In this document: positions 2,297 through 44,732 of the stretch, one piece after another | How the letters are laid out: each line of letters starts with the position of its first letter | How positions within the stretch are numbered: the stretch's first letter is position 1 | Sequence record: NC_105788.1 | DNA: 49,689 bases | Direction: 5' to 3' (one strand) | DNA from: a phage | Program-made: the position numbers and the translations under genes | The notes under the pieces: model-generated | Told to the model about the DNA's origin: nothing | What the model saw: the letters and a program-made list of their open reading frames with translations, nothing else | Database searches by the model: none

Positions 2297-2489
2297 TAAT
2301 ATTTACCGCGTAGTTGCGATCTCACGCAAAACGCAAAAGAGTGTGATCGCTTACATGGGTAGTAGCGCCATTGAAGCTACGGATGCCTTCGAATTATTGA
2401 AGAACAACGAGGGATTTATGAACACGTTCCGCGTTCGACTTGAGCGCCTCGAACCTGTTATCATTGATGAAGCGCGAAAGTTATCCTGA
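2289..2489 (+). CDS. hypothetical protein (66 aa)
   Basis: ATG at 2289 with AAGGAGG RBS; 8-nt overlap with upstream gene. Confidence 0.5.
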   Translation: MNDNIYRVVAISRKTQKSVIAYMGSSAIEATDAFELLKNNEGFMNTFRVRLERLEPVIIDEARKLS

Positions 2490-2505
2490 CTGGTTAGGGG
2501 GAATA

Positions 2506-2979
2506 ATGAACCATACTTACAAAATCACAACGAAGTCACCGAAGATTAACGGAAGCACGGTTGCGGCACTAAATAACGCGGCGGCAATTCACGAGAAAAA
2601 CATCATGGAGCGCGTTAAGGCGGCGGTAGGCCGATTCTACGGAATCAACGCAGACATTGCCGACAGCAAACGACTGTTCAAGTATGTGCCAGGCCATCCA
2701 TATAGCCGGATGATTGATATTAAGCACGACAAAGAGCTTGTTAGAATCGGATCGCTTGGCGTTGACGAGTTCGACCACAGCATTAACCTAGTTACGGCAT
2801 ATCAAACGTTGTTAGAATCGGATCGCTTGGCGTTGACGAAAAGCATGATTTGGATTCACACCTTCTACACCGGAAAATTTAACAGCGTTATTCATAAGAG
2901 AGTTTACGAAAGCTACTCTGAAGCTAATAAACAGCATGAAGTTTTAGGTGGAACGCTTAAAGCATATATTCCGGCATAA
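2506..2979 (+). CDS. hypothetical protein (157 aa)
   Basis: ATG 2506 after AGGGGG RBS; contains a 31-bp perfect direct repeat. Confidence 0.5.
   Translation: MNHTYKITTKSPKINGSTVAALNNAAAIHEKNIMERVKAAVGRFYGINADIADSKRLFKYVPGHPYSRMIDIKHDKELVRIGSLGVDEFDHSINLVTAYQTLLESDRLALTKSMIWIHTFYTGKFNSVIHKRVYESYSEANKQHEVLGGTLKAYIPA
2738..2839 (+). repeat. 31-bp perfect direct repeat (TTGTTAGAATCGGATCGCTTGGCGTTGACGA) at about 2738-2768 and 2809-2839
   Basis: read directly; copies 71 bp apart so they are translated in different frames. Confidence 0.7.
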
Positions 2980-2999
2980 ATAGCACGAATTGCTAAAGA
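2980..2999 (+). promoter_or_regulatory. conserved box ATAGCACGAATTGCTAAAGA
   Basis: box copy directly after stop of 2506..2979. Confidence 0.6.
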
Positions 3000-3057
3000 C
3001 ATGCTATCGGGGGTGATATATATTACTCCCACACCAAACGAAACAAAGGAATCAAAA

Positions 3058-3282
3058 ATGAGCATTAAAGTTGAGAATATCATCAAGCACCTGAACGCGA
3101 AAGGTCGTGTAGTTATCAAAATGGATAAGTCTTCCGGTTTTATTTCAATGACGGTAACTAAGTCCCGTAACGGTAATAACGTTATCGGCAGTACGCCAGG
3201 CTCGCGCTTAGTAAATGCAACAGATGCGGATGTGCGCGCTACGCTTGAGTCTAACTCAATTTACATTAATTCATGGAGTTGA
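3058..3282 (+). CDS. hypothetical protein (74 aa)
   Basis: ATG 3058 after AAAGGA RBS (internal start of ORF 3001..3282). Confidence 0.5.
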   Translation: MSIKVENIIKHLNAKGRVVIKMDKSSGFISMTVTKSRNGNNVIGSTPGSRLVNATDADVRATLESNSIYINSWS

Positions 3283-3495
3283 TTGATGGAGCGGGATAAT
3301 TTCTAGACTCGTTATTTTGCCGCTCTTGATGCTGGGCTTAGCGCGGAATGGTGTATCAAGGTTGCGTATAAAGAAATTACGCTTGACGACGCGCTAGGGA
3401 ATATGGATATGGACGCGGAGAGTGAATATAATCCCGGCTTCGAGATGCCTGGTGATGATATTGATGAGGACGACGACGATTATATTCCCTGGTAA

Positions 3496-3575: not shown

Positions 3576-3992
3576 ATGAAAACCATTAAACTTAAATGCA
3601 CTTCAGCAGACAAAATCACAGGATTCGAAGTAAACAATCTGTATAAAGGTCGTGAGCGCTATGATGGCACTCGCGAAGTAAAGTTAAAATGCGGTAAGTA
3701 TTTAAAACTTGAAAAGCATGATGAATTACAGATTCACGGATCTGATGAAATCTTCTTCGCGAAGTTCACCGAGTTGAAAACAAAGACGCTCAAGTGCACC
3801 GGACTTGACCATCGCAACCCGATGAAAAAATCATTCAAAGTTGGCAAGCGTTATCAGGTAGAAAGCGGTCGCGCTCTTGGTGGCGTAGCTGGTTACATCT
3901 TTGATGAAGATGGATATCGCTGGACCCTGTTTCGCGAAGAGGTTGGTTTTAGTATCGCAGACGGCACAACCTTTGAGGCCAAATACTTATAA
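3576..3992 (+). CDS. hypothetical protein (138 aa)
   Basis: ATG preceded by AACCAATCAGGAG block. Confidence 0.55.
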   Translation: MKTIKLKCTSADKITGFEVNNLYKGRERYDGTREVKLKCGKYLKLEKHDELQIHGSDEIFFAKFTELKTKTLKCTGLDHRNPMKKSFKVGKRYQVESGRALGGVAGYIFDEDGYRWTLFREEVGFSIADGTTFEAKYL

Positions 3993-5641: not shown

Positions 5642-6049
5642 ATGCTTCTTCTTTTAGATCTGTTCAGGTTCTGCGAAGGTTACGACAAATACACCCGACA
5701 GCACATAGCGAAATTTATATACGCCCACAATGAAAGTGAGCGATTTGCTAAGGCCGCCGGGATGACTCGCCGTGAATTTACAAGCGCGCTATCTAAGGAG
5801 TTTTGCGCACGTTGCGTGACTGAGGGTTATCTTGATTGCAGGGGTGGGTTTTACTGGTGCAAGGGAAAGATCAAGCGCCCGGTAATGATGAAGCTGATGT
5901 GTATTGATGGCTACAACAATCGATATACGTGGGAAATGATGCACATTGGAGAAATGAGTGATGAAGAATTGTTTGGCGAACGTAGAAACGTTGATAGATC
6001 GGAACGTCGAATTGTGCGCAAGGCTCCAGCTTACGAAAGAAGAATTTGA
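5642..6049 (+). CDS. hypothetical protein (135 aa)
   Basis: ORF track; overlaps next call by about 90 nt in another frame, so the true 3' end is uncertain. Confidence 0.4.
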   Translation: MLLLLDLFRFCEGYDKYTRQHIAKFIYAHNESERFAKAAGMTRREFTSALSKEFCARCVTEGYLDCRGGFYWCKGKIKRPVMMKLMCIDGYNNRYTWEMMHIGEMSDEELFGERRNVDRSERRIVRKAPAYERRI

Positions 6050-9562: not shown

Positions 9563-9665
9563 CCTTTATATCGAAATATTTTGCTATTAGTGCTATATCG
9601 TCTGAGATTCCGCATTCCTTTGCGTGCTCCCACACTTCGCGCTTACCTTTCTTTTTTATCAGCAT
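9393..9665 (-). CDS. N-terminal frame of a frame-disrupted gene (hypothetical)
   Basis: good GGAGAAA RBS at 9665 start; 3' part looks like out-of-frame readthrough (KR-rich). Confidence 0.35.
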   Translation of the reverse strand: MLIKKKGKREVWEHAKECGISDDIALIAKYFDIKDVSIISNGKISFMEDMPRKMHRVPATPSLEFYREEGKRIERERKTAKSNKSSRLKH

Positions 9666-24402: not shown

Positions 24403-24450
24403 GATGTTTACCTTTTTGTGCTATTTATCGGTAGACTCATTATACAGGCG

Positions 24451-24475
24451 AAAAAAAACCCGCGCAAGGCGGGTT
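24451..24475 (-). terminator. intra-operon hairpin plus T8 between gpI-like and gpJ-like genes
   Basis: AACCCGC-CTTGC-GCGGGTT + T8 on minus strand. Confidence 0.5.
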
Positions 24476-24479
24476 AATT

Positions 24480-25079
24480 TTAACTCATATCCTCGGCATA
24501 AGAACCTGCTGAGAAAGTTGCTCCACCTCCGGCGCGATATCCATATGGGACCGGGAGAGGGTATCCCGCCGCCGTCGTATTGACAGCACCGCCGAACGCG
24601 TACGAAGGTTTATTCTTGCTTGATTGAACTTCAAAGTTTGCGCCACCCGGCTGCGGTGAAATCATCTGCATCACGCCGCCCAGCACCATAGCGCCGCCCA
24701 TCATAAACAGAGACGAGGACATTGTGCCCATTAAAGCCAGAGACGCGCCGCCAGTATAGAATGCTGCAACCATTATTGCCGCGCCCAATACAACCTGGAA
24801 TAGACCTCCTGTCTTAGAGCCAGTAGGGATCGGTACGATTCTTATCTCTTTCGCGCACTTGAATTTTTCCTCTTCATGGTGTCCAACGTTAACGCCATCC
24901 ACAAATATCGCAAACTTGCTACGAGATCCTATCTCGCTTTGCATGTATTCTTTAAATCCATCCACCTGACTGGATAGCGCCCGTATGGCTTCCGGGTAAG
25001 AGTCAACAGCGTAACGGTGAAAGACGCCGAAACGCCTCCCAAGTGAACCTGACAATTTAATTACTTTTACATCATTCAT
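24480..25079 (-). CDS. tail assembly protein (lambda gpI-like)
   Basis: shared blocks with lambda I (EAIRAL; IVP..G.K.GG.FQVVLGAA; MVLGGV.QM). Confidence 0.85.
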   Translation of the reverse strand: MNDVKVIKLSGSLGRRFGVFHRYAVDSYPEAIRALSSQVDGFKEYMQSEIGSRSKFAIFVDGVNVGHHEEEKFKCAKEIRIVPIPTGSKTGGLFQVVLGAAIMVAAFYTGGASLALMGTMSSSLFMMGGAMVLGGVMQMISPQPGGANFEVQSSKNKPSYAFGGAVNTTAAGYPLPVPYGYRAGGGATFSAGSYAEDMS

Positions 25080-26589: not shown

Positions 26590-26630
26590 TGATTTTTCCT
26601 CTTGTTTACCTGCAACCATTCTACAGCTAC

Positions 26631-26652
26631 AAAAAAACCCGCGCAAGGCGGG
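26631..26652 (-). terminator. intra-operon hairpin plus T7 between gpM-like and gpL-like genes
   Basis: CCCGC-CTTGC-GCGGG + T7; near-identical to the hairpin at 24451-24475. Confidence 0.5.
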
Positions 26653-26668
26653 CTTTTGTTATGTGGCG

Positions 26669-30684: not shown

Positions 30685-31353
30685 TTAAGCACCAGGCGAT
30701 GCCAGAGTGGAGGAAATGAAAGTAAAGTCACCTTTCAGGGATACGGCGAGTTCCACCGTTTCCATTTCGTTAACCTGCGTGGATGGGATATCGTTAAACG
30801 ACAAGATGCCAGCCCACATACGCATTTCGCTCGCTTTCGGCACGTACATTCGAACCGCTGTTACCTGGCCAGACGAATCCAGCTTGCGCAGAATCGGGTA
30901 GATCGGGTTATCAAATTCGTGCGCGAAAGTGTACGTTAGCGATACCGCAGATTTAAACGTTGGAATCTGCTGCTCTTTATCGTCGGACAAACACTGATAA
31001 GTGTAATACTGCTGCTCGCCGCCGTCCTGACCAATCTCCTGCACGCAAGGGATCTCAGTCCATCCAGTAATTTTTGCGAAGCTCATCGTACCGCCAGCCG
31101 GGAAAACAAGTGTATCAGAGGTGTCAATTCCAGCAAGAGTGATGCTTGTTTCCTGAGCGTCAGTAACAATTAGCACTCGACTAACCATCTTTGCCCAAGT
31201 TGACTGAGTTACAATAACGTAATCACCTTTTGCCAAGTCACCCTTAGATGCAACTGTAGCAACAGGATTTTCTGCGTTAGTGACAGCGGTTGCCTCAACC
31301 TCTACCCCTCGAGAGGTTTCCACGAAAATTTGTGCGCCATTTGGTAAGTGCAT
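30685..31353 (-). CDS. major tail protein (lambda gpV-like)
   Basis: 223 aa immediately upstream of G; start at internal ATG with AAGGAG RBS. Confidence 0.7.
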   Translation of the reverse strand: MHLPNGAQIFVETSRGVEVEATAVTNAENPVATVASKGDLAKGDYVIVTQSTWAKMVSRVLIVTDAQETSITLAGIDTSDTLVFPAGGTMSFAKITGWTEIPCVQEIGQDGGEQQYYTYQCLSDDKEQQIPTFKSAVSLTYTFAHEFDNPIYPILRKLDSSGQVTAVRMYVPKASEMRMWAGILSFNDIPSTQVNEMETVELAVSLKGDFTFISSTLASPGA

Positions 31354-41063: not shown

Positions 41064-41089
41064 GTTTAACATTTAGTGCTATTTTACCA
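41064..41089 (-). promoter_or_regulatory. box copy (ATAGCACTAAATGTTAAAC) overlapping an extended -10 (TGGTAAAAT) upstream of TerS
   Basis: read directly on minus strand. Confidence 0.45.
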
Positions 41090-41101
41090 TATTGCAGGCA
41101 T

Positions 41102-41123
41102 AAAAAAACCCGCCGAAGCGGGT
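41102..41123 (-). terminator. intrinsic terminator (CCCGC-TTCG-GCGGG + T7) at end of minus-strand early arm
   Basis: GC hairpin plus T7. Confidence 0.65.
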
Positions 41124-41132
41124 TAGTATTTA

Positions 41133-44286: not shown

Positions 44287-44732
44287 TACCAACAAGTGAT
44301 CTCATAGTTGGCCCAGTCATCAAAGATACCCTGGCTGAAGTCGCCACCGTAGTTTTCCATAAGTTCATCGATCAGGAAGTAGCAGGATTCGCCGTTACGA
44401 TAGAAGTATGAATCTGCAACGTTACGCGCCCAGCGTCCGGCATCTTTCTTGCTCATCTTCCAGTATTTCATTGCAATTTTCTTGAATGCTCGCACGACAC
44501 GCTTGCGGATCTTGATATTCTTGTACACCGAATTGCAGCCGTAGGCCATATATTCGTTATTTCCAAGATTCTGCATGATGTACGGATTAACCTCTTTTGA
44601 GGTAATCATCAGATCGCCATCGCCGCGACGCGCATCATAAATACTTGCTGTCATGTAGTGACCTTTGAACATTCCGATGCCGTGCAGGGTGTATTCATCG
44701 TTAGGCGTTTCAATGCAAATCAAATGTTTCAT
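44286..44732 (-). CDS. hypothetical protein (about 148 aa)
   Basis: internal ATG with GAGGGA RBS. Confidence 0.45.
   Translation of the reverse strand: MKHLICIETPNDEYTLHGIGMFKGHYMTASIYDARRGDGDLMITSKEVNPYIMQNLGNNEYMAYGCNSVYKNIKIRKRVVRAFKKIAMKYWKMSKKDAGRWARNVADSYFYRNGESCYFLIDELMENYGGDFSQGIFDDWANYEITCW

What the first reader, a model, noticed from the sequence alone, without database searches (positions are those of the whole stretch)
2738..2839. 31-bp perfect direct repeat inside a coding region, in different frames
TTGTTAGAATCGGATCGCTTGGCGTTGACGA occurs twice 71 bp apart within gene 2506..2979, so the copies are translated differently (LVRIGSLGVDE versus LLESDRLALTK). A perfect 31-mer in a phage gene is unexpected: it could be a recent slipped duplication, a recombination hotspot, a protein or RNA binding site, or an assembly artefact.
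Basis: seen in the sequence. Interest (0 to 1): 0.4.

Follow-up and report, generated by a model that had tools for sequence, protein, structure and literature searches.

The report
Private duplication fusing two phage genes
The second copy of the 31-base repeat is a very recent copy-and-paste mutation, or less likely a sequencing error, found only in this one version of the T1-like coliphage CLB_P3; it overwrote the stop/start junction between two small genes and welded them into one reading frame, so it is a mutational scar and not a functional element.

Summary
A perfect 31-mer lies at 2738-2768 and 2809-2839, 71 bp apart, and is read in two frames.

The window is a whole Tunavirus genome. 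It is a circular permutation of Escherichia phage CLB_P3 (OL770108.1) and differs from it at only five places in 49.7 kb. One of those is this site: the 13 nt GGGACGGTAAAAA are replaced by 35 nt. Those 35 nt are 30-31 nt copied from 71 bp upstream plus AAAGC.

Every relative examined has one copy and two genes overlapping by ATGA (106 aa, then 44-47 aa). That includes GenBank CLB_P3, independent read-based assemblies of the same phage from four SRA runs, T1, and a homologue with 41% identity. The +22-nt change removes the stop codon and fuses the two genes in frame (2506-2979, 157 aa).

The novel junction is absent from every collection searched. Copy 1 evolves as ordinary coding sequence. There is no RNA family match, no stable structure and no new promoter or terminator.

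Best reading: a recent templated deletion-insertion (template switching) in a slightly diverged CLB_P3 stock. An assembly artefact cannot be excluded without reads. Interest is low.

The parts
2506..2979 (+). Fused ORF of 157 aa: gene A codons 1-101, a 12-aa linker LLESDRLALTKS, then gene B codons 1-44 and the stop codon
   Evidence: ORF translation. PHROG hits: phrog_10555 on residues 1-101 and phrog_3955 on residues 114-155. In relatives these are two CDSs overlapping by 4 nt.
2506..2808 (+). Ancestral gene A, codons 1-101 (phrog_10555, function unknown). Its native last five codons WDGKK and its stop codon are missing here.
   Evidence: Alignment with CLB_P3, JMPW1 and ADB-2; PHROGs.
2738..2768 (+). 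Copy 1, the donor. It is native gene A coding sequence (LVRIGSLGVDE).
   Evidence: Present at the orthologous place in all relatives. 9 of its 31 sites vary among them, against 28% for the whole gene, and variation across the gene is mainly at third codon positions.
2769..2808 (+). 40-nt spacer. It is native gene A coding sequence, identical to CLB_P3.
2809..2839 (+). Copy 2, the inserted copy, read in a different frame as linker LLESDRLALTK. The novel DNA relative to CLB_P3 is 2810-2844 (35 nt replacing 13 nt); T2809 is shared with the ancestor.
   Evidence: Whole-genome comparison with OL770108.1. Absent in all relatives.
2840..2844 (+). Filler AAAGC between copy 2 and the ATG of gene B. Its donor is uncertain.
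   Evidence: The 12-mer GAAAAGCATGAT also occurs at 3711-3722, but 7% of random 5-nt fillers do as well.
2845..2979 (+). Ancestral gene B (44 aa, phrog_3955, function unknown). It is intact and now lies in frame with gene A. It has lost the upstream TGA overlap and the GGGACGG...A6 leader.
   Evidence: The exact 44-aa product is called as a separate gene in OL770108.1 and in the Logan assemblies.
3711..3722 (+). Possible second donor for the filler (GAAAAGCATGAT). Weak and not statistically supported.
   Evidence: p about 0.07.

Best explanation
Copy 2 is the scar of a single recent mutation in a slightly diverged stock of phage CLB_P3. The mutation is a templated deletion-insertion. A DNA 3' end at or near the gene A/gene B junction (ancestral ...CAAACGT|GGGACGGTAAAAA|ATGATTT...) left its template and re-primed 71 nt upstream. 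It copied 30-31 nt of gene A and then returned to the original template just before the ATG of gene B. In the process 13 nt were lost and 5 nt (AAAGC) were gained, either from a second short hop or untemplated. The net +22 nt removes the TGA of gene A and puts gene A in frame with gene B, so one 157-aa fusion protein is encoded instead of two translationally coupled proteins. The repeat itself has no function. What is shown: the derived, private, intragenomic origin of copy 2, and the in-frame fusion. What is inferred: the template-switch mechanism, that the variant really exists in the phage population, and whether it is neutral or selected.
For: 1. The window is CLB_P3. After circular permutation, 43,781 bp align with 2 mismatches and the remaining 5.9 kb with 1 mismatch plus two indel sites.
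2. At this site CLB_P3 has GGGACGGTAAAAA where the window has TGTTAGAATCGGATCGCTTGGCGTTGACGAAAAGC.
3. Every relative has one copy and the junction CAAACNTGGGAYGGYAAAAAATGATTT with an ATGA overlap. This covers 17 loci from phage records and IMG/VR including T1, 6 metagenome or Logan loci, further Logan loci, and a homologue with 41% identity.
4. Independent read-based Logan assemblies of the same phage from runs SRR19268269, -70, -72 and -73 match the window with at most two base substitutions around the site, and none within about 1.1 kb of it, yet carry the ancestral junction.
5. Copy 2 is identical to this genome's own copy 1, including G2758, which among the fetched loci is shared only with the other CLB_P3 assemblies.
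6. The novel junction is absent from IMG/VR, GTDB genomes, JGI metagenomes, 50,697 phage records and E. coli genomes. The fused protein is absent from the 5.8-billion-sequence protein set and from the gene index.
7. The window also has private point changes: V123G at 412, H51Y at 44582, and a synonymous change at 31051 known only as a difference from the GenBank record. It has no 1-nt homopolymer indels. This fits a real, clean, slightly diverged lineage better than a noisy assembly.
8. Both domains survive the fusion, with PHROG hits on residues 1-101 and 114-155.
Against: No reads are available, so the variant's existence in the phage population is unproven. The junction microhomology is minimal on the left (1 nt, T). 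On the right, the available 4-nt GACG microhomology was not used cleanly. The AAAGC filler needs a second step, and its candidate donor at 3711 is not significant (p about 0.07). The variant destroys a junction that is conserved even at 41% protein identity, so it may be deleterious. That makes it somewhat surprising as a consensus sequence. T1-like phages and E. coli have no Pol-theta-type enzyme known to make such scars (my own knowledge).
Confidence: 0.7

Rival explanations
1. Assembly, consensus or library artefact. The phage has the ordinary single-copy junction, and copy 2 comes from chimeric molecules or a mis-resolved assembly path.
For: Only this one assembly has it. GenBank CLB_P3 and four independent run assemblies do not. 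Its sister record carries an obvious repeat artefact of its own, a perfect 55-bp tandem duplication, which shows that such errors reach databases. 31 is a common assembler k value (my own knowledge). The change destroys a highly conserved junction.
Against: A de Bruijn graph cannot invent the two novel junctions or the AAAGC filler without reads that contain them. The repeat is interior, not tandem, and not at a contig end, unlike the 55-bp case. The rest of the assembly is clean, with no homopolymer indels in 49.7 kb. It also carries private substitutions, which suggests a genuinely different stock. The result is an in-frame fusion, a 1-in-3 outcome under an artefact.
Confidence: 0.2
2. A real mutation that was positively selected. 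Fusing A to B, or abolishing separate B expression or A's native C-terminus, benefits the phage in the condition where this stock was propagated, for example by escaping a host defence that senses one of these early proteins.
For: The outcome is in frame and keeps both modules. Two of the three accompanying private substitutions are non-synonymous. The B module occurs naturally as the C-terminal domain of larger proteins (P0006 of 75 aa and P0008 of 135 aa), so an N-terminally extended B is probably functional.
Against: There are no functional data. Both families are of unknown function. The sample is a single genome. The junction is otherwise strictly conserved. Three substitutions are too few for any test of selection.
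Confidence: 0.12
3. The 31-mer is a functional repeated site: an iteron or operator, an RNA element, a mini-CRISPR repeat-spacer-repeat, or a DGR template/variable pair.
For: The geometry superficially resembles repeat-spacer-repeat (31 + 40 + 31). The match is perfect.
Against: All relatives have a single copy. Copy 1 is no more conserved than the rest of gene A, with 29% against 28% variable sites, and in the distant homologue the sequence is unrecognisable. There is no Rfam match at E<=1. The fold is no better than shuffles, z = +1.37. No promoter or terminator is created. There are zero mismatches, so no adenine-specific DGR pattern.
Confidence: 0.02

Closest known systems
Templated insertions / deletion-insertions from serial template switching (FoSTeS/MMBIR-type events; 'templated insert' scars of alternative end joining)
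   Same: The insert is an exact copy of nearby sequence (71 bp away, same orientation). A few nucleotides were lost at the breakpoint. There is little or no microhomology at the junctions, and a short extra filler suggests more than one priming step. This description of the class rests on my own knowledge; reviews seen only in a search listing are PMC12426944 and PMC5068794, which I did not read.
   Different: It occurs in a virulent coliphage replicated by the host replisome together with a phage recombinase and exonuclease, with no Pol theta. This is a single event, and neither the mechanism nor the enzyme was tested. The second template is not demonstrated.
Replication slippage giving tandem duplication between short repeats
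   Same: Backward re-priming on the same strand creates a direct repeat close to its source.
   Different: A slippage duplication would repeat the whole 71-nt unit head to tail and lose nothing. Here only 31 nt are repeated, 13 nt are lost and 5 nt are added.
Gene fusion by loss of the stop codon between adjacent overlapping (ATGA) genes
   Same: Two translationally coupled ORFs found separately in all relatives become one in-frame ORF that keeps both modules.
   Different: Fusion is usually by a point mutation or a 1-2-nt indel. Here it comes from a 22-nt net templated insertion that also supplies a 12-aa linker translated from gene A sequence in another frame.
k-mer overlap duplication left in circular assemblies (such as the 55-bp tandem repeat in OL770108.1)
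   Same: A perfect direct repeat, private to one database record, with a length equal to a common assembler k.
   Different: It is not tandem, not at the circularisation point, is accompanied by a deletion and a filler, and creates novel junctions that need read support.

Membership tests
Templated deletion-insertion (template-switch scar) | The insert is identical to a sequence elsewhere in the same genome, close by | tested here: met
   31/31 identity to 2738-2768, 71 nt upstream, same strand. It includes the lineage-specific G2758.
Templated deletion-insertion (template-switch scar) | Derived state: absent from the closest relatives, with ancestral nucleotides lost at the same site | tested here: met
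   13 nt GGGACGGTAAAAA, present in CLB_P3, in 4 Logan assemblies of the same phage and in all other relatives, are replaced.
Templated deletion-insertion (template-switch scar) | Microhomology at the switch points | tested here: inconclusive
   Left junction has 1 nt (T). On the right, GACG is shared with the ancestral sequence but the product is GACGAAAAGCATGA, not GACGGTAAAAAATGA. A candidate second donor at 3711 would give 2-nt and 5-nt microhomologies but is not significant.
Templated deletion-insertion (template-switch scar) | The variant is present in the DNA molecules (read or PCR support) | not testable with these tools
   No reads are available for this assembly.
Simple tandem (slippage) duplication | The whole unit between the slip points is repeated head to tail, with no loss of sequence | tested here: not met
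   Only 31 of the 71 nt are repeated; 13 nt are deleted and 5 nt added.
Gene fusion of adjacent genes | Two separate ORFs in relatives and one in-frame ORF here that keeps both homology regions | tested here: met
   CDSs of 106 aa and 44/47 aa with a 4-nt overlap in relatives. A single 157-aa ORF here with phrog_10555 on residues 1-101 and phrog_3955 on residues 114-155.
Conserved binding site / regulatory repeat | Two or more copies conserved in related genomes, with conservation above background | tested here: not met
   One copy in every relative. 9/31 variable sites against 28% for the gene. Not recognisable in the 41%-identity homologue.
Structured RNA / CRISPR repeat | Match to a known RNA family, or a stable conserved fold | tested here: not met
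   No Rfam match at E<=1 in 2300-3300. Minimum free energy -23.2 kcal/mol against a shuffle mean of -27.9, z = +1.37.
Diversity-generating retroelement (TR/VR pair) | The copies differ at adenines of the template repeat | tested here: not met
   The copies are identical. A reverse transcriptase was not specifically searched for.
Assembler overlap artefact | Perfect tandem repeat of length k at the circularisation point | tested here: not met
   The copies are separated by 40 nt, lie 2.7 kb from the window end, and are accompanied by a deletion and a filler. Compare the true example in OL770108.1 at 49602-49711.

The most novel reading that the evidence does not exclude
The ancestral junction GGY-AAA-AAA-TGA, with gene B's ATG in the -1 frame, is conserved at the nucleotide level even between gene A homologues of 41% identity. 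It might be a 'shifty stop' where tRNA-Lys slips -1 on the A6 run, so that T1-like phages would normally make a little A-B fusion protein as well as the two separate proteins. On that reading, this CLB_P3 variant is a natural experiment that hard-wires the fusion, and it was tolerated or selected for that reason.
Probability: 0.05. Interest if true: 0.5.

Novelty: new member of a known kind. Interest (0 to 1): 0.2.

Why it matters
Mostly it matters for quality control. Anyone annotating this genome should know that 'gene 2506..2979' is a lineage-private fusion of two conserved small early genes (phrog_10555 and phrog_3955), and that the site should be confirmed with reads before the protein enters databases.

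If the variant is real, it is a clean, datable example of a complex templated indel in a virulent phage: only three base substitutions and one 55-bp repeat, itself probably a record artefact, separate the window from the GenBank parent elsewhere in the genome. It shows how an out-of-frame copy of coding sequence can become a linker and create a new fusion protein in one step.

It also points to the A/B junction as an unusually conserved translational-coupling site in Tunavirus. It does not reveal a new kind of genetic element.

Tried and rejected
1. Rfam search of 2300-3300 at E<=1 found nothing.
2. RNA folding of 2730-2850 was weaker than shuffled controls.
3. The promoter/terminator scan found nothing created by copy 2.
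4. Pfam gave only sub-threshold noise, LEF-9 and Vta1. PHROGs gave families of unknown function only.
5. An AlphaFold2 single-sequence model of the fused protein was unusable (mean pLDDT 33.6), so no fold search was run.
6. I asked whether a natural A-B fusion exists. phrog_15992/P0008 (135 aa) aligns to residues 60-155 of the fused ORF. Gene A alone shows no similarity to it, so it is a different N-terminal domain joined to B, and the match through the linker is chance.
7. I asked whether gene A is a paralogue of the upstream 124-aa gene. BLASTP found no similarity.
8. A second donor for the AAAGC filler: a 12-mer match at 3711 was rejected as evidence because 7% of random fillers score as well.
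9. Searches for the novel junction in IMG/VR, GTDB genomes, JGI metagenomes, the phage records and E. coli genomes all gave zero hits.
10. The distant homologue P0004 was not found in IMG/VR or the metagenome contigs. It was found through the gene index instead.
11. The literature on CLB_P3 / OL770108 shows only that it is used as a spike-in phage in virome work. Nothing concerns this locus.
12. One PHROG call failed on wrong coordinates, and two scripts failed and were rerun.

Full report
**Observation.** The 31-mer TTGTTAGAATCGGATCGCTTGGCGTTGACGA occurs exactly twice in the window, at 2738-2768 and 2809-2839 on the + strand. There are no further copies even with three mismatches, and none in 100 dinucleotide-preserving shuffles (family D17). 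The bases on either side differ, so the repeat is exactly 31 nt. The copies start 71 nt apart. Within the ORF 2506-2979 they are therefore read in different frames, as LVRIGSLGVDE and LLESDRLALTK.

**What the window is.** The region matches T1-like phages (Drexlerviridae, Tunavirus) at 84-98% identity, best to Escherichia phage CLB_P3, OL770108.1. The second half of the window is 100.0% identical to CLB_P3. A whole-genome comparison shows the window is a circular permutation of that record and differs at five places:
- three substitutions, at window 412, 31051 and 44582;
- a 55-bp tandem duplication present only in the GenBank record;
- a complex change at 2810-2844.

**What happened at the site.** CLB_P3 reads ...CATATCAAACGT GGGACGGTAAAAA ATGATTTGG.... 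The window reads ...CATATCAAACGT TGTTAGAATCGGATCGCTTGGCGTTGACGAAAAGC ATGATTTGG.... So 13 nt were replaced by 35 nt, a net gain of 22. Of the 35 nt, the first 30 (31 counting the shared T) are an exact copy of 2738-2768, and the last five are AAAGC.

In CLB_P3, JMPW1 and ADB-2 the region is annotated as two CDSs that overlap by ATGA. The first is 106 aa and ends ...TWDGKK*. The second is 44-47 aa and starts MIW/MIY. The +22-nt change removes the TGA and brings the first frame into register with the ATG of the second. The resulting single ORF is A(1-101), a linker LLESDRLALTKS, then B(1-44). PHROG profiles confirm both modules are retained: phrog_10555 on residues 1-101 and phrog_3955 on residues 114-155, both of unknown function.

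**Polarity and age.** Every relative inspected has one copy and the junction CAAACNTGGGAYGGYAAAAAATGATTT. The set comprises:
- 17 loci from phage records and IMG/VR, including T1 itself;
- six ENA/Logan metagenome loci;
- two further relatives from ERR runs;
- a homologue with only 41% identity in gene A (L036).

The strongest evidence comes from Logan assemblies built independently from the reads of SRR19268269, -70, -72 and -73. They contain the same phage, differing from the window by at most two base substitutions in the stretches that overlap (none within about 1.1 kb of the site), but carry the ancestral two-gene junction. Copy 2 matches this genome's own copy 1, including the G at 2758, which among the fetched loci only the other CLB_P3 assemblies share. 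Copy 2 is therefore derived, intragenomic and very recent.

The novel junction is absent from all of the following:
- IMG/VR;
- GTDB genomes;
- JGI metagenomes;
- 50,697 phage records, none of which covers 80% or more of an 81-nt junction query;
- complete E. coli genomes.

The fused protein is also absent from the 5.8-billion-sequence protein set and from the gene index.

**Is the 31-mer a functional site?** No evidence supports this.
- Among 19 distinct relatives, 9 of the 31 positions vary (29%), against 28% for gene A as a whole. Across gene A, 62 of 85 variable sites are at third codon positions.
- In the 41%-identity homologue the sequence is unrecognisable, although the A/B junction is kept.
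- Rfam finds nothing.
- The region folds no better than shuffled sequence.
- No promoter-like or terminator-like site is created.
- The copies are identical, so there is no DGR-like adenine mutagenesis.

**Mechanism (inferred).** A simple slippage duplication would repeat the whole 71-nt unit and lose nothing, and that is not what is seen. The pattern is an exact nearby copy in direct orientation, a small deletion at the same point and a short filler. That is the pattern of a templated deletion-insertion made by template switching: a 3' end leaves the junction, primes 71 nt upstream, copies about 31 nt and returns.

Microhomology is weak. On the left it is 1 nt. On the right, the ancestral GGGACGG shares GACG with the end of the copy, but the product is GACGAAAAGCATGA and not GACGGTAAAAAATGA. 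The 12-mer GAAAAGCATGAT at 3711-3722 could have supplied the filler in a second hop. However, 7% of all possible 5-nt fillers find a match of 12 nt or more somewhere in the genome, so I do not count this as evidence.

**Real or artefact?** I cannot see reads.

In favour of a real variant:
- the two novel junctions and the filler cannot arise in a de Bruijn assembly without reads that contain them;
- the repeat is interior and not tandem;
- the assembly has no homopolymer indels in 49.7 kb;
- the window carries private substitutions that neither GenBank CLB_P3 nor the Logan assembly has at 412 and 44582, two of them non-synonymous, V123G and H51Y, which suggests a separately propagated stock.

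CLB_P3 is distributed and used as a virome spike-in (PMC10197239), so slightly diverged stocks are expected.

In favour of an artefact:
- it is seen in only one assembly;
- it destroys a junction conserved across the whole family;
- the sister record shows that repeat artefacts do reach databases. Its perfect 55-bp tandem duplication at 49602-49711 truncates a 135-aa ORF that is intact in the window and in the Logan assembly.

I put the real mutation at about 0.7 and an artefact at about 0.2. Selection for the fusion is possible but untested. The B module does occur naturally as the C-terminal domain of larger proteins (P0006, P0008). P0008 is not an A-B fusion, because gene A alone shows no similarity to it.

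**Consequences (inferred).**
- Gene B loses termination-reinitiation coupling and its native leader, so it is probably made mainly as the fusion.
- Gene A loses its conserved WDGKK C-terminus.
- The two 31-bp repeats can now recombine to delete 71 bp. That would not restore the wild type and would shift the frame.

**Comparison with known classes, and verdict.** This is a member of a known kind of mutational event: a templated indel that fuses two adjacent genes. It is not a new element. It matters for annotation and quality control, and it is a tidy single example of fusion-protein birth. The most novel reading not excluded is that the conserved GGY-AAA-AAA-TGA junction supports -1 slippage, so that wild-type phages make some A-B fusion and this variant hard-wires it (probability about 0.05). 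Interest is 0.2.

Noticed in passing
window, + strand copies near 729, 1194, 1611, 2976, 3992, 6154, 13906, 30589, 34353, 49309, 49514; - strand copies near 9580, 9912, 10935, 14986, 18086, 24408, 41066, 42897, 44270, 44790, 46337, 47063, 47624, 48363: About 25 copies of an intergenic motif AAATAGCAC-N3-5-TTG(C/T)TAAA, with an inverted-repeat core TAGCA-N5-TGCTA (or TGTTA). Its strand follows the direction of the adjacent genes (families D1/D3). It looks like an operator or promoter-associated site of the T1 family. One copy sits directly after the stop of the fused ORF, and the same motif follows gene B in the distant relative L036.
   Followed up: no
L018 (OL770108.1) 49602-49711; window 5844-5898: The GenBank CLB_P3 record has a perfect 55-bp tandem duplication that shifts the frame and truncates a 135-aa ORF to 106 aa. 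The window and the Logan assembly of SRR19268272 have one copy and the intact ORF (window 5642-6049). It is probably an untrimmed k=55 circular-assembly overlap in that record.
   Followed up: partly
window 412, 31051, 44582: The only three substitutions against CLB_P3 are G/T at 412 (V123G in a 234-aa early protein), G/T at 31051 (synonymous, in a 222-aa tail protein) and A/G at 44582 (H51Y in a 148-aa protein). At 412 and 44582 the Logan assembly agrees with GenBank, so the window alleles are private.
   Followed up: partly
window 49689: The last base (T) is redundant when the window is circularised against the Logan contig, giving a 1-nt overlap of the ends.
   Followed up: no
ancestral junction, e.g. 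L001 2010-2030; L036 1309-1330: The A/B junction TGGGAYGGYAAAAAATGATTTGG (C-terminal WDGKK, an A6 run and an ATGA overlap) is conserved at the nucleotide level even where gene A has diverged to 41% protein identity. This could reflect translational coupling or, speculatively, a -1 slippery stop.
   Followed up: partly
proteins P0006 (75 aa), P0008 (135 aa), P0007/P0009 (45-49 aa): The 42-aa gene B module (IW[IV]HT[FY][YH]TGKF...VLGG) occurs free-standing, as the C-terminal domain of otherwise unrelated proteins, and (from PHROG profiles 11192 and 36005) at the N-terminus of others. It is a small shuffled module of unknown function.
   Followed up: partly
window 24438-24482, 26617-26661, 41088-41132: Three related copies of AAAAAAACCCGC(G/C)...GCGGGTT hairpins (family D9). 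They look like ordinary intrinsic terminators.
   Followed up: no
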